A stretch of 64,000 bases of DNA from Flavobacteriales bacterium (lineage in GTDB: Bacteria; Bacteroidota; Bacteroidia; Flavobacteriales_F; PHOS-HE28). Location of the stretch: assembly GCA_016717305.1 (NCBI GenBank), contig JADKFY010000041.1, forward strand, positions 878 through 64,877, written 5' to 3'. The translations under genes were made by a program, and so were the position numbers. The notes beneath the pieces are model-generated. The model was not told the DNA's origin. It saw only the letters and a list, made by a program, of their open reading frames with translations, and did no database searches. The number at the start of each line of letters is the position of its first letter. Position 1 is the stretch's first letter. Positions 16,198 through 60,205 of this stretch are shown piece by piece.

Positions 16198-17520
16198 TCA
16201 TCGAGTTCCTATCCGAGTCAAATGCAACCCAGCGATCGCCGCCACCTGCTTCGCATCCACCTCCGCCTTCTTCGCGCACTTCTTCCACGTCTTCACGCCC
16301 GCCACCACCTCGTCGATGATCGCTTCGGCCTTCTTGATGTTCATCTCCTTCGCCACCGCCAGCAGATCCGCGCGCGAGATGTCCAGCCGCTTGCCGTTGA
16401 TGCTCATCTGGTGCTGCTTCAGCCACACGTTCTTCGGATCGTACGCGAAGGTGATGTCGTAGGCCGGGCTCAGGTGCCACACACCTTGCGGATCCATCAG
16501 GAACGACGTGTTCTTCGTATGGTCGTCCAGGTTGCGGGCCACCACGTTGAAACACATGCGACGGAACATCTCCACCGCATCGGGGTAGGGTAGGCCCAGC
16601 AGGCGCATCATCGCGAAGGCATCCTCGTAGCTGTAGCGCAGCGGGTCGTTGAAATCGAGGTGACCCAACCCGCAGAGCGTGGCCATGTGCAAGCGCACCT
16701 GCTCGCCGGTCTTCGCATGTTGCACGCGATCGAAACGCTGCGTCAGGAAGTGCGCACGACCATGTTCCTCCAGCAAGGTGCTCGGCATCATGCTGATCCC
16801 GCTCGCCACCGCCATCAGGTGGTACGCGTACTCGATGCGACCATAGCCTTTCGGATCGCCCAAGGCCGTGTTCGTCACGCCATCGAACTTGATCAGGCAG
16901 TAGGTAAAACCTTCCAGCCCATCGATCTGCCCGCTGCGCACCTCGCCCGTCTTCGCGTTGAACGCCACAATGGCCTTAGCCCGCGCGCCACCGGCGCTCG
17001 TGCCCACTTGGATGATGTCCAGCAGCGCTTCCTGCTCGCCCTTCTTGCGACTCGTCTTGAACGCTTCCTTCTGCGTCATCACGTCACGTGCCACGCGCAC
17101 CAGCTCATCGATCTGCAACGCCTCGCTGCTCGCCTCCAGTTCGCCGTGACTGGGTTCGAACTCCAGCGCGCCCATGCCGCGATGCCCCAAGTAGCACAGC
17201 TTCTCCACAGGATTCGCCGACCCCGCATCGCGCTTCTGCCCGCGCAACCACGCGTTCAGCAGCGTATCGCCGAAACGGTCCGGCAGGCAATCGGCCAACA
17301 GGCCCGGCAGCCCCTTGAAGGTCTCATCGCGCAAATTGCCGAAGCTGAACACCTCCTCGCCGCCGCGCGCCTTCGCCAGCGGCATCATCACCGGCGCCAC
17401 ATCCAGCCCGCTGCGCGTGAACGAGCGGTCGAACTGGAACGTGGCCGTGTGCAGTTGGTCGTCCCACACCACCAGGCCAACCGTCTTGCCCCACAACAAC
17501 ACTTTCGCATGCGTTACCAT
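16198..17520 (-). CDS. hipA: HipA-family serine/threonine kinase toxin (type II TA)
   Basis: 440 aa with HipA N- and C-terminal domain arrangement. Overlaps the upstream HTH gene by 7 bp. Confidence 0.85.
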   Translation of the reverse strand: MVTHAKVLLWGKTVGLVVWDDQLHTATFQFDRSFTRSGLDVAPVMMPLAKARGGEEVFSFGNLRDETFKGLPGLLADCLPDRFGDTLLNAWLRGQKRDAGSANPVEKLCYLGHRGMGALEFEPSHGELEASSEALQIDELVRVARDVMTQKEAFKTSRKKGEQEALLDIIQVGTSAGGARAKAIVAFNAKTGEVRSGQIDGLEGFTYCLIKFDGVTNTALGDPKGYGRIEYAYHLMAVASGISMMPSTLLEEHGRAHFLTQRFDRVQHAKTGEQVRLHMATLCGLGHLDFNDPLRYSYEDAFAMMRLLGLPYPDAVEMFRRMCFNVVARNLDDHTKNTSFLMDPQGVWHLSPAYDITFAYDPKNVWLKQHQMSINGKRLDISRADLLAVAKEMNIKKAEAIIDEVVAGVKTWKKCAKKAEVDAKQVAAIAGLHLTRIGTR

Positions 17521-17879
17521 GTGCTTTTGGGTTTAGGCGGAGCCACATCTGGCTGCTTACGCCCCGCGCGTTTGCGTTGCTTCTTCAGGTACTTCTCCTG
17601 CGCCTCCACCAGCATGTAGGGCGTGGGCTGCGGCTCCTGGTGGAAGGCATCGAGCAGTTCCAGCCGGTCCATGGCGCGCAGCACCTGCACCACGGTTTGC
17701 AGCGTAGCGGCGCGACCGGCCTCCAGCTTCACCACCGTGGTGCGGTCCAAGCCCGCGCGCTCGGCCACCTCGGCCTGGCTCTGGTTGCGCTCCAGCCGCA
17801 TGCGCCGCAGTTCTTTTCCCAGTTGCGCCACCACAGCGGCATCGTTCATGACCTTCCAGTTGATGTTGCTTGTAGCCAT
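17514..17879 (-). CDS. hipB: HipB-like XRE-family HTH antitoxin/repressor
   Basis: 121 aa. XRE HTH segment LRRMRLERNQSQAEVAERAGLDRTTVVKLEAG. Overlaps hipA start. Confidence 0.75.
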   Translation of the reverse strand: MATSNINWKVMNDAAVVAQLGKELRRMRLERNQSQAEVAERAGLDRTTVVKLEAGRAATLQTVVQVLRAMDRLELLDAFHQEPQPTPYMLVEAQEKYLKKQRKRAGRKQPDVAPPKPKSTW

Positions 17880-18206: not shown

Positions 18207-18677
18207 TCAGTGTTCTGCTCGCTTCAGTTCTGTCCGGATAGCTCCGCCAGCCACGATTTTCCAAGTGACAGTGTAGACACCTGCACCATCGGAGAATCCG
18301 CCGGTGAGTATGTGCCCACCTTCACAAGGTTTGATCTCGAATTGGCCATCATGGATGGACAGGTCCCAACTCACATTGAACATGCCTGTGACATCCAAAG
18401 CTGTGCGCTTCCCACTGATCTCGATCATCAACGATCTGAAGTGATTACGCGGCATGCGGTAATCGAGGTCGGACCCGAAATAGGGTTGGCCATCAATGAG
18501 ACAGATCGGGTCATCTTGCCAATCCAGCACCTTGCAGTGCGTGACCGCGTGTGCTGTGGAATCAAACGGGACAACCTCTCCAGTGAGCTTGATATCATAG
18601 CCGAGGTCAATTGTCTGCCCTGCACTGGACATGACCAGCATCAGCAGATTCATTAGGGTGACCGCACGTCGTTTCAT
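18207..18677 (-). CDS. Secreted hypothetical protein (about 156 aa) immediately downstream of rayT
   Basis: Signal peptide MKRRAVTLMNLLMLVMSSAG. Its start codon overlaps the rayT stop (ATGA). No recognisable domain. Confidence 0.45.
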   Translation of the reverse strand: MKRRAVTLMNLLMLVMSSAGQTIDLGYDIKLTGEVVPFDSTAHAVTHCKVLDWQDDPICLIDGQPYFGSDLDYRMPRNHFRSLMIEISGKRTALDVTGMFNVSWDLSIHDGQFEIKPCEGGHILTGGFSDGAGVYTVTWKIVAGGAIRTELKRAEH

Positions 18678-19234
18678 CGCCAGTTCGATGGATTCTCCGC
18701 AATGTATTGCGCGATGCGCCCATATTCGCCGCCTTGTTGGCGGATGGCACGTTCGTAATACCCCGGTTGCCACAGGCGTTGCCCGGTGATTCCGTTCAGC
18801 CGGTTGATGCGTTTGGTCGTTTCCGATTTGAACGCCGCGATGATCGCGCCCAACGAACCGGGAACAGGTCCACGCGGTCTGGCCGGAACATCGTCCATCG
18901 CACGGTCATCGTCCAATGCACCCGTAGCGTCGACCCACTGGGTCGACCCATTGCCCACCGGCGGTACCAACGCAATGATCGCATGCAGATGATCCGGCAT
19001 GACCTGCGTTTGGTCCAATCGCGCGTGCTGGAAATGACCCGGTATCGCGCGCCAGCATTCATCCACCATGCGGCCCACGTCGTTCAATTCCATCAGCGCA
19101 TCCGTTCCGTCGCCTACGATACGCCCGAACAATTCCTGCCGCTGTGCGGTGCACAACGTCACGAAATACGCACCCTGCCGGTAATCGTTTCCACGCAGGC
19201 GAATGTGTTTGTGGTATTTCGGCGGTTGGCCCAT
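18674..19234 (-). CDS. rayT: REP-associated tyrosine transposase (RayT / TnpA_REP, IS200-like HuH Y1 family)
   Basis: N-terminus HKHIRLRGNDYRQGAYFVTLCT, HuH motif PDHLHAIIAL, C-terminal catalytic-Tyr region RLWQPGYYERAIR. It also carries a 27-nt REP-like insert encoding [11 protein letters not shown]. Confidence 0.8.
   Translation of the reverse strand: MGQPPKYHKHIRLRGNDYRQGAYFVTLCTAQRQELFGRIVGDGTDALMELNDVGRMVDECWRAIPGHFQHARLDQTQVMPDHLHAIIALVPPVGNGSTQWVDATGALDDDRAMDDVPARPRGPVPGSLGAIIAAFKSETTKRINRLNGITGQRLWQPGYYERAIRQQGGEYGRIAQYIAENPSNWR
18924..18950 (+). repeat. REP-like 27-nt palindromic element, copy 1 (inside rayT coding sequence, in-frame)
   Basis: GTAGCGTCGACCCACTGGGTCGACCCA. The core GTCGACCCA-C-TGGGTCGAC is a perfect 9+1+9 palindrome. 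Confidence 0.6.
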
Positions 19235-19238
19235 CGCA

Positions 19239-19963
19239 TCACGGGTCGACCCAGTGGGTCGACGCTACGTCGGCGTTGATCAGGATCCACGTTCCATCAA
19301 TCGCCTCAATGATCCCCTTCGCCGCCACCGGGATCTTCGTCCCCGGCCCGTACACATCAAAACACCCGGCCTGCTTGAGGAAGTCGTAGTCGTTCGGCGG
19401 GATCACGCCACCGGCCACCACGAGGATGTCGGGGCGCTTGTAGGTCTCGCGCAGTTCCTTGATCACCTCGGGCACCAAGGTCTTGTGGCCACCGGCGAGG
19501 CTGCTGATGCCCAGCACGTGCACGTCGTTCTCGATGGCCTGCTTGGCCACTTCCTGCGGCGTCTGGAACAGCGGACCGATGTCCACGTCGAAGCCGATGT
19601 CGGCGAAGCTGGTGGCGATCACCTTGGCGCCGCGGTCGTGCCCGTCCTGGCCCATCTTGGCCACGAGGATGCGCGGGCGGCGGCCTTCCGCCTTGGCGAA
19701 TTCATCGGCGAGGCGCATGGCCTCCTTCATCTCGGGGTCCTGCATGCTTTCCGCTGAGTAAACACCGCTGATGCTGCGGATGGTGGCGCTGTAACGGCCG
19801 AAGGCTTTTTCGAAGGCGTCGCTGATCTCCCCGAGGGTAGCTCGGTGGCGGGCGGCGATAACGGCGAGTTCCAAGAGGTTTGCCTGAGCTCGGTTGGCTT
19901 GTCGTCGCTCGTGGCTCGTGGCGTCAAGGCTCGCGGCCGCAGTCAACGCCTGCAACGCCTCCT

Positions 19964-19967
<4 letters not shown>
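19239..19967 (-). CDS. Methylmalonyl-CoA mutase C-terminal cobalamin-binding domain (continuation of upstream ORF after frameshift at about 19965)
   Basis: [65 protein letters not shown] is the canonical DxHxxG B12-binding domain. The N-terminus MKEALQALT... aligns with the MutB linker. A 4-bp overlap with the preceding ORF implies a single gene with a frameshift. Confidence 0.7.
19242..19268 (-). repeat. REP-like 27-nt palindromic element, copy 2 (inverted, between rayT start and MCM 3' end)
   Basis: Reverse complement reads GTAGCGTCGACCCACTGGGTCGACCCG, 26/27 identical to copy 1 and in opposite orientation. Confidence 0.6.
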
Positions 19968-22510
<2,543 letters not shown>

Positions 22511-22689
22511 TGGTGCGAAGTTCGGGGTTGGGGATGGATCACAGCATGTTCATGAAGGATCTGGCCATCTCCGAAGTGCGATAGGTAAGTGGTGAAGTGG
22601 ACAGCCTCACTTGAATAGTGATGGCTTACATTCTGGCACGATAATTGAACTTCGCGCACACACGATCAACCAAAATCAAACGCAATAAC

Positions 22690-23127
22690 ATGAAGAAGTT
22701 CTTGACCATCGTTGCCCTCCTAGGCACATTCGGCATTGCCACTGCACAAACCTCCACCGAACCCGTTGCCCCTGTAAAGGAAGCCGCTGTTGACGGTGTG
22801 AAAGCTACAGAAGCTGGTACAATGGATGCCAAAGAAGCTGTAGGAACAACGAAGGAAGAAGCCGCCAAGGCGGGAGAGGCCGCTAAGTCGGAAGGTGCCA
22901 AGGACGCAAAGGCCGCTGGTTGCTGCGCAGGTAAAGGAAAGGATGCCAAGTGCGACCATGCTAAAGCTGGTGCAGGGGACGGTCACGGACATGCCGACGG
23001 ACATGGACATGATCACGCAAGTGCCAAGGCACACGTTTGCACGGATGCCTGCAAAGGTGACGCACACGCATTGGCGTGTGGTGAAGAAGGGCACAAGTGC
23101 GCTGCCGATTGCCACGCGAAGAAGTAA
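22690..23127 (+). CDS. Secreted Ala/Lys/Glu-rich protein with His/Cys-rich C-terminus (putative metal-binding protein)
   Basis: Signal peptide MKKFLTIVALLGTFGIATAQ. C-terminus CCAGKGKDAKCDHAKAGAGDGHGHADGHGHDHASAKAHVCTDACKGDAHALACGEEGHKCAADCHAKK. Confidence 0.55.
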   Translation: MKKFLTIVALLGTFGIATAQTSTEPVAPVKEAAVDGVKATEAGTMDAKEAVGTTKEEAAKAGEAAKSEGAKDAKAAGCCAGKGKDAKCDHAKAGAGDGHGHADGHGHDHASAKAHVCTDACKGDAHALACGEEGHKCAADCHAKK

Positions 23128-23146
23128 TTCGTTCCAATGGATCTGA

Positions 23147-23183
23147 AGCCCTGCTACCGTTCGGTAGCAGGGCTTTTCCTTTT
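23147..23183 (+). terminator. Rho-independent terminator
   Basis: AGCCCTGCTACC-gttc-GGTAGCAGGGCT (12-bp perfect stem) followed by TTTCCTTTT. Confidence 0.6.
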
Positions 23184-23310
23184 GGAGAATAGCTCCATTC
23201 CTGATATTCCGGTCGGCTGGAATACTGCCGATCCGGTTTTGGTAATTTAGCCGACCAAACCACGGCCGCGGACCTATAACCTACAGGGTCCCCGCAATTT
23301 TGAATTTACC

Positions 23311-23796
23311 ATGCAGATCAAGAAGAATTCCGTTGTCTCCTTCCATTACACCCTCAATGATCCAGATGGCAAATTGCTGGATACCAGCGAAGGGCGTGAG
23401 GCGTTCGCGTACATCCAAGGTCAAAGTATGATCGTACCGGGACTGGAACGCCAGCTCGAAGGCAAAAAGGCTGGCGACAGTGTAAAGGCAGTAGTACCCG
23501 CTGCCGAGGGATACGGTGATCTTGATCCGACCTTGGTGCATAAAGTCCCATCCGACCGTTTTGGTGATCAAACGATCGAGCTTGGCATGCAATTCCAAGC
23601 AGGCAATGAAGATGGCGGCGAAATGGGCGTGTTCACAGTCATCGGCGTTGAGGAAGGACTCGTGGTACTGAACGGGAACCACCCATTGGCCGGTGTTACC
23701 CTTCATTTCAATGTGGACATCAAGGATGTGCGTGATGCAACCGAAGAGGAACTGAGCCATGGCCATGTGCATGGCGAGGGTGGACACCACCATTGA
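23311..23796 (+). CDS. slyD: FKBP-type peptidyl-prolyl isomerase SlyD with His-rich C-terminal tail
   Basis: 161 aa with FKBP and IF-flap layout. C-terminus EEELSHGHVHGEGGHHH. Confidence 0.8.
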   Translation: MQIKKNSVVSFHYTLNDPDGKLLDTSEGREAFAYIQGQSMIVPGLERQLEGKKAGDSVKAVVPAAEGYGDLDPTLVHKVPSDRFGDQTIELGMQFQAGNEDGGEMGVFTVIGVEEGLVVLNGNHPLAGVTLHFNVDIKDVRDATEEELSHGHVHGEGGHHH

Positions 23797-58114: not shown

Positions 58115-60205
58115 ATGCCCACGCTGACCACCGAAGACCGTCAACTCCATTTCGAACGCGGTACCCATTCCAATGATTTCCTGATCGGTGCCTACGTACG
58201 GTTGGTGCGGCCACGGATCATCGAGGAAAAGATGTTGAGCCTATTGCGTCAAGGTAAGATCAGCAAATGGTTCAGCGGGATCGGTCAGGAAGCGATCAGT
58301 GTAGGTGCCGCCATGGCCCTGCATCCGGATGAGTACATCCTGCCCATGCACCGCAACTTGGGTGTTTTCACCACGCGCGATATGCCTTTCCGGAAACTAT
58401 TCGCCCAATGGCAAGGCAAGGCGACGGGTTACAGCAAAGGACGTGAACGCAGTTTCCATTTCGGGAGCCAAGAGCACAAGATCGTGGGCATGATCAGCCA
58501 TTTGGGTCCCCAGTTGGGTATCGCGGATGGCATTGCCTTGGCCCATAAACTGAAGAAGGAGAACCGCTGCACGATCGTCTTTACCGGCGATGGTGCCACC
58601 AGTGAAGGGGATTTCCATGAAAGCCTTAACGTGGCGGCGGTGTGGGAACTGCCCGTCCTCTTTATCATTGAGAACAACGGCTACGGATTGAGCACGCCTA
58701 GTCGCGAACAGTTCCGCATGGAACATTTCACCGACAAGGCCATTGGTTACGGCATGGAGACGGTGCAGATCGCAGGCAACAACATCTTGGAGGTGTACAA
58801 CAACATTGCGCGCTTGGCCGATAGTGTTCGCGAGAACCCGCGCCCGATCCTAGTGGAATGCATCACCTTCCGCATGCGTGGCCATGAAGAAGCCAGTGGC
58901 ACCAAGTATGTGCCCAAGGAACTGTTCGAAGTGTGGGGCAAGAAGGACCCCGTAGCCAATTACGAAGCCTGGCTGATCAAGCAGGGGATCCTTTCCATTG
59001 AAGAACGCGATGCTATTCGTCATGGGATCAAGGACGGGATCGAAGAGGACATCAAGCACGCCTTCGAAGAACCCGAACCGGAACCGGTGCAGGAGATCGA
59101 AATGGGGGATGTATATGCAGTAGCGCCGAATTCCACCTTTGGCACCGGTAGCGTCGACCCACTGGGTCGACCTACGGAGAACAGTGGCGCACAACCCGAA
59201 AAGCGATTCATCGATGCCATCCAAGAAGCCATGTTCCAAAGCATGGAACGCTACCCGCAATTGGTGTTGATGGGGCAGGACATTGCCGAGTATGGCGGTG
59301 CGTTCAAGATCACCGAAGGATTCGTGGAACGCTTCGGAAAGGACCGCGTTCGCAATACGCCACTGTGCGAAAGTGCGATCGTGGGCGCAGCATATGGACT
59401 TAGTGTGAAGGGCATGAAGGCCATGATGGAAATGCAGTTCGCCGATTTCGTGAGCGAAGGCATGACGCAGATCTGCAATGTGCTTGCGAAGAGCCACTAC
59501 CGCTGGGGCCAGAACGCCGATGTGGTGATCCGGATGCCTACAGGTGCTGGAGTAGGAGCAGGACCCTTCCACAGCCAGAGCAACGAAATGTGGTTCGTGA
59601 AAACCGCAGGATTGAAAGTGGTGTACCCGAGCAACCCGTTTGATGCGAAGGGCTTGCTCATGACCGCTTTCGAAGACCCCAATCCAGTGATGTTCTTCGA
59701 GCACAAAGCGATGTACCGAAGTGTGACCGGTCCTGTGCCAACGGAGCCGTACAGCATTCCTTTCGGCAAGGCACGTGTGGTGCGCGAAGCAGAAGCGACC
59801 CGTCACGACAGCCCTGTTTCCCTAAGCGTGATCACCTACGGCATGGGTGTACATTGGGCCACGGAATTGGCAGCTTCACTGGCGGATCGTTCGGTGGAAG
59901 ACGGAGGACCGATCGATATGGAGATCATCGACCTGCGCACCTTGGTACCGTTGGATCTGGATACGATCATTGCGAGCGTGAAAAAGACCGGCAAGGCATT
60001 GGTGTTACACGAGGACACCTTGACCGGCGGTTTCGGAGGTGAATTAAGTGCGCTGATCAACGAACATTGCTTCGATCATTTGGATGCACCTATCGTTCGT
60101 GTGGCGAGTTGGGATACGCCTGTGCCATTTGCCATTCCGTTGGAGAAAGGATTTCTGCCGAAGACGCGGTTTTGGGAAGCGGTGGAACGGTTGGCTGGGT
60201 TTTGA
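58115..60205 (+). CDS. TPP-dependent 2-oxoacid (pyruvate/branched-chain) dehydrogenase E1 component, fused alpha and beta subunits
   Basis: 696 aa. Alpha-domain TPP motif GDGATSEGDFHESLNVAAVW…, linker, then beta/transketolase-like domain. Contains the in-frame REP-like insert GSVDPLGRP. Confidence 0.85.
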   Translation: MPTLTTEDRQLHFERGTHSNDFLIGAYVRLVRPRIIEEKMLSLLRQGKISKWFSGIGQEAISVGAAMALHPDEYILPMHRNLGVFTTRDMPFRKLFAQWQGKATGYSKGRERSFHFGSQEHKIVGMISHLGPQLGIADGIALAHKLKKENRCTIVFTGDGATSEGDFHESLNVAAVWELPVLFIIENNGYGLSTPSREQFRMEHFTDKAIGYGMETVQIAGNNILEVYNNIARLADSVRENPRPILVECITFRMRGHEEASGTKYVPKELFEVWGKKDPVANYEAWLIKQGILSIEERDAIRHGIKDGIEEDIKHAFEEPEPEPVQEIEMGDVYAVAPNSTFGTGSVDPLGRPTENSGAQPEKRFIDAIQEAMFQSMERYPQLVLMGQDIAEYGGAFKITEGFVERFGKDRVRNTPLCESAIVGAAYGLSVKGMKAMMEMQFADFVSEGMTQICNVLAKSHYRWGQNADVVIRMPTGAGVGAGPFHSQSNEMWFVKTAGLKVVYPSNPFDAKGLLMTAFEDPNPVMFFEHKAMYRSVTGPVPTEPYSIPFGKARVVREAEATRHDSPVSLSVITYGMGVHWATELAASLADRSVEDGGPIDMEIIDLRTLVPLDLDTIIASVKKTGKALVLHEDTLTGGFGGELSALINEHCFDHLDAPIVRVASWDTPVPFAIPLEKGFLPKTRFWEAVERLAGF
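59148..59174 (+). repeat. REP-like 27-nt palindromic element, copy 3 (in-frame inside the E1 alpha-beta linker)
   Basis: GTAGCGTCGACCCACTGGGTCGACCTA, encoding GSVDPLGRP between the alpha and beta domains of the fused E1. Confidence 0.6.

What the first reader, a model, noticed from the sequence alone, without database searches (positions are those of the whole stretch)
18674..19270. RayT transposase with its own 27-nt REP-like palindrome inserted in-frame in its coding sequence and an inverted copy just upstream
The element GTAGCGTCGACCCACTGGGTCGACC(C/T)(A/G) occurs at 18924-18950 and, inverted, at 19242-19268. Its core is a 9+1+9 perfect palindrome. Copy 2 sits in the 7-bp-flanked gap between the rayT start and the MCM 3' end, which is classic REP/RayT topology. 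Copy 1 lies inside rayT. There it encodes [13 protein letters not shown] in a loop between the HuH motif (HLHAIIAL) and the catalytic Tyr region (QPGYYERAIR). That loop is about 20 aa longer than in E. coli RayT. A transposase carrying a copy of its own substrate within its ORF has, to my knowledge, not been described for REPtrons.
Basis: partly seen in the sequence, partly recalled or inferred. Interest (0 to 1): 0.75.

Follow-up and report, generated by a model that had tools for sequence, protein, structure and literature searches.

The report
RayT gene carrying its own REP
A domesticated transposase gene (rayT) in an uncultured Flavobacteriales genome carries, in frame in a surface loop, a copy of the short DNA hairpin (REP) it acts on; this is real and conserved, but the arrangement was already described for this transposase subfamily in 2018.

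Summary
The 25-mer GTAGCGTCGACCCACTGGGTCGACC lies at 18924-18948 (+) and 19244-19268 (-). The element is a classical GTAG-headed REP and occurs in more than 118 loci, nearly all from Flavobacteriales MAGs. ORF 18674-19234 (-) is a Y1 HUH transposase of the RayT/TnpA-REP type.

The in-gene REP is not a recent 9-codon insertion. All 28 aligned orthologues, and 103 of 113 distinct orthologue loops, keep it at the same site. Its synonymous sites are almost frozen, and its stem changes together with the upstream copy. Some subclades carry second or third in-frame REPs in other RayT loops. Distant RayT relatives often carry their own, unrelated REP in the same loop after the HUH motif.

This architecture is published. 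Quentin et al. [quoted passage not shown] The novelty claim therefore fails.

Verdict: a new member of a known kind. The modest new point is evidence that the in-gene copy is actively maintained.

The parts
18674..19234 (-). rayT (TnpA-REP-type Y1 HUH transposase), 186 aa. HUH is H82-L-H84. The GTAG-recognition motif is W155-Q..R165. The catalytic Tyr is Y177 (QYIAENP).
   Evidence: Pfam Y1_Tnp scores 23.5 bits (cut-off 23) and NCBIfam REP_Tyr_transpos 51.6 bits (below its cut-off of 80); only the C-terminal half aligns. The AF2 model's 30 best Foldseek hits (ranks 1-30) are all Y1 transposases: ISDra2, IS608, IS200, a Sulfolobus tokodaii transposase and 4ER8. There are 647 homologues, some named RayT by JGI.
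18924..18950 (+). In-gene REP, antisense to rayT. The head GTAGC is at 18924-18928, the 9-bp arms at 18929-18937 and 18939-18947, and the loop base at 18938. It is read in frame as GSTQWVDAT (residues 96-104) in the loop between strand beta3 and helix alphaC.
   Evidence: It is conserved at this site in all orthologues. Synonymous third-position diversity is 0.07 against 0.54 elsewhere. The AF2 model has pLDDT below 50 for residues 92-121.
19242..19268 (-). Upstream REP, in the sense orientation relative to rayT, 7 nt before the ATG. Ancestrally it lies in the MCM-rayT spacer; here it is read as the last 9 codons of the frameshifted MCM ORF.
   Evidence: An upstream REP was found in most orthologous loci that include upstream flank.
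59148..59174 (+). Third REP copy, in the sense orientation and in frame (GSVDPLGRP), in the linker between the E1 alpha and beta halves of the fused 2-oxoacid dehydrogenase ORF 58115-60205.
   Evidence: Among 120 orthologues the insertion is present in some and absent in others, and P0274 has two copies.
19239..19967 (-). C-terminal B12-binding part of methylmalonyl-CoA mutase. It is split from the 848-aa N-terminal part (19964-22510) by a frameshift. A second frameshift extends its C-terminus through the REP.
18207..18677 (-). Downstream 156-aa hypothetical protein with a signal-peptide-like N-terminus. Its ATG overlaps the rayT stop (ATGA). The order MCM-rayT-hypothetical is conserved in L199 and L200.
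   Evidence: no Pfam hit.

Best explanation
The locus is a REPtron of the type Quentin et al. 2018 call TnpA-REP subclass 2.4 (equated with Bertels' group 4 in their Table 1). It is a single-copy, vertically inherited rayT gene sitting downstream of MCM.

Its cognate REP has the form CCYGTA[G/C]C-GTCGACCCA-N-TGGGTCGAC. One copy lies immediately upstream of the gene. A second, inverted copy lies in frame inside the gene, in the disordered loop between the HUH strand (beta3) and helix alphaC.

Shown:
- The element is a GTAG-headed REP spread through related Flavobacteriales genomes. About half the sampled copies are intergenic and about 40% lie in predicted coding sequence.
- The in-gene copy is ancient and orthologous across the clade.
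- It retains head and stem, and it co-varies with the upstream copy.
- Additional REPs have entered other RayT loops in subclades, and also linkers of housekeeping proteins such as E1.

Inferred mechanism: RayT cuts and joins REP hairpins on single-stranded DNA and acts mainly on DNA near its own gene. REP copies are therefore repeatedly deposited in and around rayT. Only copies that are in frame and fall in permissive surface loops survive. Five of the six reading frames of this REP are open and encode Gly/Pro/Ser/Thr/Asp-rich peptides. Because the in-gene copy remains a bona fide RayT substrate, it is kept matched to the upstream copy and the genomic REP family. This would occur by RayT-dependent recopying or gene conversion, or by selection. 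The encoded 9 residues are a tolerated passenger in the protein.
For: REP identity:
- GTAG/GTAC head plus hairpin in 114 of 134 sampled copies (131 in the genome loci plus the 3 in the window); more than 118 loci, nearly all Flavobacteriales MAGs.
- REPIN-like doublets with heads pointing outward and 24-33 nt spacers.

RayT identity.

Conservation of the in-gene copy:
- Present in all 28 aligned orthologues, and in every intact orthologous locus of at least 56% identity except L131, with the head retained in most.
- 103 of 113 distinct RayT loops keep the stem-encoding pattern. In the E1 linker only 19 of 84 are intact, with 15 weaker, partial matches to the pattern.

DNA-level constraint: third-position diversity in REP codons has a median of 0.07, against 0.54 elsewhere (Mann-Whitney p=5e-4).

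Co-variation of the two copies:
- The GTCGAC versus GCGAC stem type agrees in 25 of 25 loci.
- The full stem type agrees in 17 of 25 loci, against 6.8 expected.

Recurrent insertion:
- A second in-frame REP occurs in P0024, P0030 and P0032, confirmed at DNA level in L199:3133-3160.
- A third site occurs in P0044, P0049, P0089 and L130.
- The E1 linker shows presence/absence polymorphism.

Same site in distant RayTs: homologues with unrelated REPs carry their own REP in the same loop (L161, L163, L172, L174, L175, L177, L185, L190, L192, L195, L196).

Published precedent: PMC6006769. Intragenic REPs in general: PMC3733652.

Loop disorder: pLDDT below 50 for residues 92-121.
Against: - A pure passenger should decay. 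REP remnants in the E1 linker do decay, but the rayT copy stays intact across a median of 59% aa identity. Some maintaining force is therefore needed, and I cannot tell homogenisation from selection.
- Cis-preference of RayT is inferred, not shown.
- Subclass assignment rests on motifs and nearest relatives. The window protein has DHLH/WQ/YIAENP rather than the published NH[IFV]H/WQ/YIxNNP. The authors' HMMs were not available.
- NCBIfam REP_Tyr_transpos is below its cut-off.
- No REP lies downstream of rayT, unlike the canonical REPtron.
Confidence: 0.7

Rival explanations
1. The in-gene REP and the upstream REP form a selected cis-regulatory device that limits RayT expression. One version: the two inverted copies pair in the mRNA into a long duplex of about 30 bp that encloses the start codon and the N-terminal half of the ORF, acting as a translation block or RNase III target. 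Another version: RayT binds its own REPs on the DNA or transcript and represses itself.
For: - The minimum-energy and centroid RNA folds of the 391-nt 5' region pair the two REPs with each other rather than locally (z = -3.67).
- The heads-outward inverted orientation is conserved in the Flavobacteriales-clade loci that have both copies.
- Synonymous sites in the stem are frozen while the unpaired loop base varies.
- The stems of the two copies co-vary.
- The rayT copy is far better preserved than the REP copies in the E1 linker.
- rayT is tightly packed between MCM and a downstream gene, with no promoter-like site found by the sigma-70-type scan (which does not cover other promoter types), so post-transcriptional control is plausible.
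Against: - Any two inverted REPs in one transcript would give the same predicted duplex, and local hairpins form first during transcription.
- REPs also enter other RayT loops and unrelated proteins, which fits promiscuous insertion.
- Relatives with a short loop and only flanking REPs exist (L164, L169, L184, L187, L189, L191, L194), so the in-gene copy is not essential to the family.
- There are no expression data.
Confidence: 0.25
2. It is an ordinary conserved protein loop. The peptide STQWVDAT is what is selected, and the palindromic DNA is incidental.
For: The peptide is conserved in all orthologues.
Against: - Four-fold degenerate third positions in the REP codons are nearly invariant, unlike the rest of the gene.
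- The same 25-mer with a GTAG head occurs elsewhere in the window and in more than 118 other loci, in other reading frames and in intergenic DNA.
- Two orthologues read the same DNA in another frame (SGDPVG.., DPMGRD).
- Distant homologues have unrelated REPs at the same site.
- The loop is predicted to be disordered.
Confidence: 0.02
3. It is a recent, lineage-specific self-insertion of a REP into rayT, representing an undescribed phenomenon.
For: The in-gene and upstream copies in the window are identical over 25 nt.
Against: - The copy sits at the same site in orthologues down to about 56% identity, from independent assemblies.
- The phenomenon was published in 2018.
Confidence: 0.03

Closest known systems
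TnpA-REP subclass 2.4 (equated with Bertels' group 4 RAYTs in Quentin's Table 1) with REPs inserted inside the gene (Quentin, Siguier, Chandler, Fichant 2018, BMC Genomics 19:475; PMC6006769)
   Same: [quoted passage not shown]
- The HuH-Y spacing is variable and long: 95 aa here, against a published median of 88.
- The subclass is reported as abundant in Bacteroidetes.
- The nearest 150 representative relatives mostly carry NH[VLIF]H / WQ / YIxNNP.
   Different: - The window protein has DHLH and YIAENP.
- Its REP is short: a 9-bp stem with GTAG 1 nt from the foot. That is how the paper describes subclass 2.5 REPs, whereas subclass 2.4 REPs are 'long' or 'double foot'.
- This REP sequence is not in their Table S1.
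- The paper reports the insertions descriptively. It does not report orthologous conservation, synonymous-site constraint or co-variation with the upstream copy.
E. coli RayT/TnpA-REP with REP/BIME (PDB 4ER8; Messing 2012, Ton-Hoang 2012)
   Same: Both have the Y1 HUH fold, the HUH motif, the WQ..R GTAG-recognition motif and the Y-I-x-x-N-P catalytic helix. Both are single-copy genes associated with GTAG-headed hairpins.
   Different: - Sequence similarity is only marginal (E = 0.86).
- The E. coli gene has REPs on both flanks and none inside.
- The HUH-to-WQ segment is about 38 aa shorter in E. coli.
Intragenic REPs and Rickettsia palindromic elements (Di Nocera 2013, PMC3733652; Ogata 2000, as cited there)
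   Same: Short palindromic repeats are inserted in frame in functional protein genes, often in linkers or loops and sometimes twice in one gene. The E1 linker and the MCM 3' end here are examples.
   Different: - According to Di Nocera 2013, the intragenic R. conorii repeats are CGTC-type (RPE-4/RPE-6) and CGTC repeats are not associated with transposase genes. RPE-1 elements are described there only as longer palindromic insertions.
- Here the host gene is the cognate transposase itself, and the element is a 27-nt GTAG REP.
REPIN-RAYT systems (Bertels & Rainey 2011; Bertels 2017)
   Same: Both involve a single-copy, vertically inherited RAYT. Inverted REP doublets with 24-33 nt spacers occur in related loci. 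The pair at rayT has the same heads-outward polarity.
   Different: The two REPs at rayT are 293 nt apart and enclose the 5' half of the gene. That unit is not repeated elsewhere in the sequences held.

Membership tests
RayT / TnpA-REP (REP-associated Y1 HUH transposase) | HUH motif and a catalytic Tyr in a Y-I-x-x-N-P helix, plus the W-Q...R GTAG-recognition motif | tested here: met
   H82-L-H84, W155-Q156..R165 and Y177 in QYIAENP align to 4ER8 residues 91-120. These columns are invariant or nearly invariant in 29 sequences.
RayT / TnpA-REP (REP-associated Y1 HUH transposase) | Curated profile score above threshold | tested here: inconclusive
   Pfam Y1_Tnp scores 23.5 against a cut-off of 23.0, which is just met. 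NCBIfam REP_Tyr_transpos scores 51.6 against 80, which is not met. Only the C-terminal half aligns, because the loop insertion splits the domain.
RayT / TnpA-REP (REP-associated Y1 HUH transposase) | IS200/IS605-type Y1 transposase fold | tested here: met
   AF2 model has pTM 0.67. The 30 best Foldseek PDB hits (ranks 1-30) are ISDra2, IS608, IS200 and Sulfolobus tokodaii transposases and 4ER8.
RayT / TnpA-REP (REP-associated Y1 HUH transposase) | Gene flanked by GTAG-headed REP hairpins that are repeated in the genome | tested here: met
   An upstream REP lies 7 nt from the ATG, and the same 25-mer occurs elsewhere in the window and in related genomes. No REP lies downstream; the second copy is inside the gene instead.
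RayT / TnpA-REP (REP-associated Y1 HUH transposase) | Single copy and vertically inherited, not IS-like | tested here: met
   There is one copy in the window. The MCM-rayT(-hypothetical) synteny is conserved in L001, L003, L018, L038, L081, L119 and L199 among others.
RayT / TnpA-REP (REP-associated Y1 HUH transposase) | Binds and cleaves its REP on single-stranded DNA | not testable with these tools
   This needs purified protein and oligonucleotides.
REP (GTAG type) | A 5' GT[AG]G tetranucleotide at or near the foot of a 20-40 nt hairpin | tested here: met
   All three window copies have GTAG-C followed by a 9-bp stem. A GTAG or GTAC head is present in 114 of 134 sampled copies.
REP (GTAG type) | High copy number within one genome | tested here: inconclusive
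No whole genome could be counted.
REP (GTAG type) | Extragenic location | tested here: not met
   All 3 window copies lie inside ORFs. Across 114 head-bearing copies, 62 are intergenic, 45 lie in predicted CDS and 7 overlap a CDS end. These calls come from my own codon-model gene caller. Intergenic DNA is still enriched relative to its share of about 16% of the sequence.
TnpA-REP subclass 2.4 (Quentin 2018) | Key motifs NH[IFV]H / WQ / YIxNNP | tested here: inconclusive
   The window protein has DHLH / WQ / YIAENP. Among its 150 nearest representative relatives, NH[VLIF]H occurs in 90, YIxNNP is the commonest Y motif (41) and WQ occurs in 105.
TnpA-REP subclass 2.4 (Quentin 2018) | Long, variable HuH-Y spacing (median 88 aa) caused by an insertion domain between beta3 and alphaC | tested here: met
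   The spacing is 95 aa here and 95 aa (median) in the relatives. The insertion lies between strand 82-89 and helix 128-146.
TnpA-REP subclass 2.4 (Quentin 2018) | [quoted passage not shown] | tested here: met
   The published statement is quoted.
TnpA-REP subclass 2.4 (Quentin 2018) | Match to the authors' subclass HMM or placement in their tree | not testable with these tools
REPIN | Two inverted REPs separated by a short spacer, and the whole doublet repeated in the genome | tested here: not met
   The rayT pair has REPIN polarity, but it is 293 nt apart, contains coding sequence and is not found repeated. True doublets with 24-33 nt spacers exist elsewhere.

The most novel reading that the evidence does not exclude
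The in-gene REP is not a mere tolerated passenger. It would be a selected component of RayT control. Together with the upstream REP it brackets the start codon and the N-terminal half of rayT. The pair could act as a long-range RNA duplex or as RayT-bound hairpins. Either way it would give the domesticated transposase a built-in sensor of its own substrate that throttles its expression. That would explain three observations: the copy keeps head and stem over deep divergence, it co-varies with the upstream copy, and it recurs at the same loop in distant RayT lineages with unrelated REPs.
Probability: 0.25. Interest if true: 0.6.

Novelty: new member of a known kind. Interest (0 to 1): 0.3.

Why it matters
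As found, it is an additional, well-documented example of a published architecture, in uncultured Flavobacteriales from activated sludge and freshwater.

What could matter is the comparative evidence that the in-gene copy is actively maintained. Its synonymous sites are frozen, its stem changes match those of the upstream copy, and it is much better preserved than REP copies in a housekeeping gene's linker.

REP/RayT systems are a leading case of long-term coexistence between a domesticated transposase and its non-autonomous elements, and how RayT activity is kept in check is not known. A self-embedded substrate would be a testable candidate mechanism.

The polymorphic second and third insertions in rayT, and those in the E1 linker, also provide natural filled and empty sites for working out how REPs insert.

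Tried and rejected
- An Rfam scan of the whole window found no family at gathering score.
- A sigma-70 promoter and intrinsic terminator scan of 18400-19600 found nothing. That scan does not cover Bacteroidetes-type promoters.
- A sequence search of the PDB gave only a marginal 4ER8 hit (E = 0.86). The fold search was needed to confirm the Y1 fold.
- I looked for a downstream REP that would complete a canonical REPtron. None was found within 3 mismatches in the window.
- I considered that the REP pair plus the rayT 5' half might be a mobile REPIN-like unit. tblastn over all held loci found no extra partial rayT copies, so I rejected this.
- I considered assigning the protein to subclass 2.5, because of DHLH and the short REP with an offset GTAG. 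The long HuH-Y spacing and the motif spectrum of the nearest relatives point to subclass 2.4 instead. This is left as inconclusive.
- I considered an assembly artefact. I rejected it because the same arrangement occurs in dozens of independent assemblies.
- Corneloup 2021 (PMC8266576) says nothing about in-gene REPs or autoregulation.
Full report
**1. Observation**

Reading the window and searching it confirm the 25-mer GTAGCGTCGACCCACTGGGTCGACC at 18924-18948 on the + strand and at 19244-19268 on the - strand. None is expected by chance. The core is a perfect 9+1+9 palindrome, and as single-stranded DNA each copy folds into a hairpin of -8.3 to -12 kcal/mol.

All three copies lie inside open reading frames:
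- Copy 1 is in ORF 18674-19234 (-), read as [13 protein letters not shown].
- Copy 2 forms the last codons of ORF 19239-19967 (-), read as ..[11 protein letters not shown].
- Copy 3 is in the middle of ORF 58115-60205 (+), read as [12 protein letters not shown].

**2. The genes**

ORF 18674-19234 is a Y1 HUH transposase of the REP-associated type.
- Pfam Y1_Tnp is just above its threshold. NCBIfam REP_Tyr_transpos is the best named family but falls below its cut-off. In both cases only the C-terminal half aligns.
- The alignment to E. coli TnpA-REP (4ER8) places the HUH at H82-L-H84. It places WQPGYYERAIR on the segment WQPRFWEHAIR, the GTAG-recognition residues listed in Fig. S11 of Quentin 2018. 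It places Y177 of QYIAENP on the catalytic Y115.
- An AlphaFold model built from 29 orthologues (pTM 0.67) has strand 82-89, a stretch with pLDDT below 50 from 92 to 121, and then helix 128-146. Its 30 best PDB matches (ranks 1-30) are all Y1 transposases, including 4ER8.

The neighbouring genes are as follows.
- Upstream lies a methylmalonyl-CoA mutase.
- Downstream lies a 156-aa hypothetical protein whose ATG overlaps the rayT stop.
- ORF 58115-60205 is a fused E1 alpha/beta 2-oxoacid dehydrogenase, and copy 3 sits in the linker between its two halves.

**3. The element is a REP**

Nearly all are Flavobacteriales or Bacteroidetes MAGs.
- The copies share an asymmetric head, with consensus CCYGTA[G/C]C-GTCGACCCA-Y-TGGGTCGAC. 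This is the GT[AG]G-at-the-foot signature of classical REPs.
- REPIN-like doublets with heads pointing outward and 24-33 nt spacers also occur.
- I classified copies with a self-trained codon-usage gene caller. Of 114 head-bearing copies, 62 are intergenic, 45 lie inside predicted coding sequence and 7 overlap a gene end.
- Intergenic DNA is strongly enriched, but in-frame intragenic copies are common. They are read as SVDPLGRP, (A/P)[24 protein letters not shown] or VDPLGRRY. Only one of the six reading frames contains a stop: the TAG of the GTAG head.

**4. The in-gene copy is old, orthologous and maintained**
- All 28 aligned orthologues (58-91% identity) carry the segment at the same place.
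- The DNA of orthologous loci from the genome and metagenome scans shows the same arrangement: rayT downstream of MCM, a sense REP just upstream, and an antisense REP 35-66 nt after the HUH codons. Intact clade loci of at least 56% identity have the in-gene copy, with L131 the one exception, and most retain its head.
- In 29 distinct coding sequences (median pairwise identity 59%), third-position diversity at four-fold degenerate codons has a median of 0.54 across the gene. In the REP codons it is 0.00-0.10 for four of five codons, with a median of 0.07 (Mann-Whitney p = 5e-4). The unpaired loop base varies.
- The stem evolves in step with the upstream copy. Lineages with GCGACCC stems have them in both copies (25 of 25 loci concordant for GTCGAC versus GCGAC). 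Lineages with a T-A instead of an A-T ninth pair usually have it in both. Overall, 17 of 25 loci are concordant against 6.8 expected under permutation. These changes are shared by clades, so they represent a few events, but each event altered both arms of both copies.
- At the protein level, 103 of 113 distinct RayT loops keep the stem-encoding pattern, and two more read the same DNA in another frame. In the E1 linker, 19 of 84 distinct linkers keep it and 15 more give only a partial match to the pattern (6 with one mismatch, 9 with two).

**5. Insertion into rayT and other genes recurs**
- One subclade (P0024, P0030, P0032) has a second in-frame REP after residue 40. It is confirmed at DNA level, with its head, in the complete genome CP064979.1 (L199:3133-3160).
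- Another subclade (P0044, P0049, P0089, L130) has a REP in a third loop.
- Among 120 E1 orthologues the linker either lacks the element, has one copy with a variable loop codon (VDP[L/P/Q/A/M/S]GR), or has two copies (P0274).
- At the MCM 3' end the stop codon normally lies 1-43 nt before the REP core. In L001 the TAG of the REP head is itself the stop. In the window a frameshift makes the ORF read through the REP.

**6. The same site in distant RayTs**

Many RayT homologues of only 31-41% identity, with entirely different REPs, also carry their own REP in the loop after the HUH motif. Examples of those REPs are GTAGGGGCACGGCGCGCCGTGCCCCTAC, GGGGCGAAT....ATTCGCCCC, GGGCGGTTCACGAACCGCCC and GGGCAGAGACAAGCTCTGCCC. 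The in-gene copy often matches copies in the flanks (L161, L163, L175, L177/178, L185, L196; also L166/167, L172, L174, L190, L192, L195). Other homologues have a short loop and only flanking REPs (L164, L169, L184, L187, L189, L191, L194).

**7. What is already known**

Di Nocera et al. 2013 (PMC3733652) documented intragenic GTAG REPs in several species, and REPs overlapping the ends of RAYT genes.

Quentin et al. [quoted passage not shown] In the searchable library this is the only paper that makes the statement.

The window protein has DHLH/WQ/YIAENP rather than the published NH[IFV]H/WQ/YIxNNP. However, its HuH-Y spacing (95 aa) and the motif spectrum of its 150 nearest representative relatives fit subclass 2.4. 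Its short REP, with GTAG one base from the stem, resembles the published description of subclass 2.5 REPs. The specific REP sequence is not in the paper's table.

**8. Mechanism**

Shown: the anatomy, the REP identity, the orthologous conservation, the DNA-level constraint, the co-variation and the recurrent insertions.

Inferred, as my preferred reading: RayT works mainly on DNA near its own gene, so REP copies are repeatedly placed in and around rayT. Only in-frame copies in permissive, disordered loops survive. The in-gene copy remains a RayT substrate and is kept matched to the upstream copy by RayT-dependent recopying, conversion or selection. The nine encoded residues are a passenger.

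The main rival is that the pair is a selected control device. The predicted RNA fold of the 5' 391 nt pairs the two REPs into a long-range duplex of about 30 bp around the start codon and the N-terminal half (z = -3.67). The superior preservation relative to the E1 copies also fits this. Against it, any inverted REP pair would give the same prediction, and short-loop relatives do without an in-gene copy. I put this rival at about 0.25.

**9. Verdict**

The locus is a new member of a known kind. Interest is modest (0.3). The one point worth following up is the evidence that the self-embedded REP is actively maintained.

Noticed in passing
window 59148-59174 (in ORF 58115-60205): A third exact REP copy lies in frame in the linker between the alpha and beta halves of a fused E1 2-oxoacid dehydrogenase. 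Among 120 orthologues the element is absent, present once with a variable loop codon, partly decayed, or present twice (P0274).
   Followed up: yes
E1 orthologue linkers (P0285, P0287, P0307, P0316, P0277, P0279, P0319, P0327 and others; alignment): The same E1 linker carries other repeated peptides in other lineages, such as SQLSV(L/V)S..PLTTDNQQLTT and GLEPLATSHELEASGSKLA. They look like in-frame readings of other palindromic repeat families. If so, the linker is a general landing site for hairpin repeats.
   Followed up: no
window about 19960-19970 and about 19290-19310: The methylmalonyl-CoA mutase is a single polypeptide of more than 1,060 aa in relatives (L018, L199). Here it is broken by a 1-nt frameshift in a short G run (..RDEVR* / VKEALQ..). 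A second frameshift replaces the last 7 or so residues (..RLMERGS* in L119) with a 22-aa tail that reads through the REP. This indicates either assembly indel errors or a decaying gene.
   Followed up: partly
L001 and L018 (MCM 3' end): In these relatives the MCM stop codon is the TAG inside the GTAG head of the upstream REP (..ALMDRSS*). The REP therefore supplies the stop of the preceding gene.
   Followed up: partly
L199:3133-3160 (CP064979.1); P0024, P0030, P0032; also P0044, P0049, P0089 and L130 at +506: Additional in-frame REP copies occur in two other loops of RayT in particular subclades, after residue 40 and between helix alphaC and the WQ strand. Together with orthologues lacking them, these give natural filled and empty sites for studying REP insertion.
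   Followed up: partly
L161, L163, L172, L174, L175, L177/178, L185, L190, L192, L195, L196, L166/167: RayT homologues of 31-41% identity from other lineages carry their own, unrelated REP (often a long 'double-foot' GTAG...CTAC hairpin) in frame in the same loop after the HUH motif. L185 has two in-gene copies.
   Followed up: partly
L062, L071, L072, L079, L113, L115: REPIN-like doublets occur: two REPs in inverted, heads-outward orientation separated by 24-33 nt.
   Followed up: partly
window 16198-17879 (-): A HipA-like kinase toxin (HipA_C and Couple_hipA domains, 440 aa) is preceded by an overlapping 121-aa HTH (Xre-type) protein. This is a HipBA-type toxin-antitoxin pair about 800 nt downstream of the rayT block.
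   Followed up: partly
window 23146-23175: A perfect 14-bp inverted repeat with a 2-nt loop (AAGCCCTGCTACCG cg CGGTAGCAGGGCTT) lies between two convergent ORFs (22645-23127 + and 23281-23793 -). It is probably a bidirectional terminator-like hairpin and is unrelated to the REP family.
   Followed up: no
L003, L038, L081, L122: Several orthologous rayT genes are frameshifted or have lost the second His of the HUH motif (HLP in L122). All four still have a REP-like hairpin at the in-gene site, and L003, L038 and L081 also keep the upstream REP; in L081 the in-gene hairpin has point changes, and in L122 the upstream stem is degraded.
   Followed up: no
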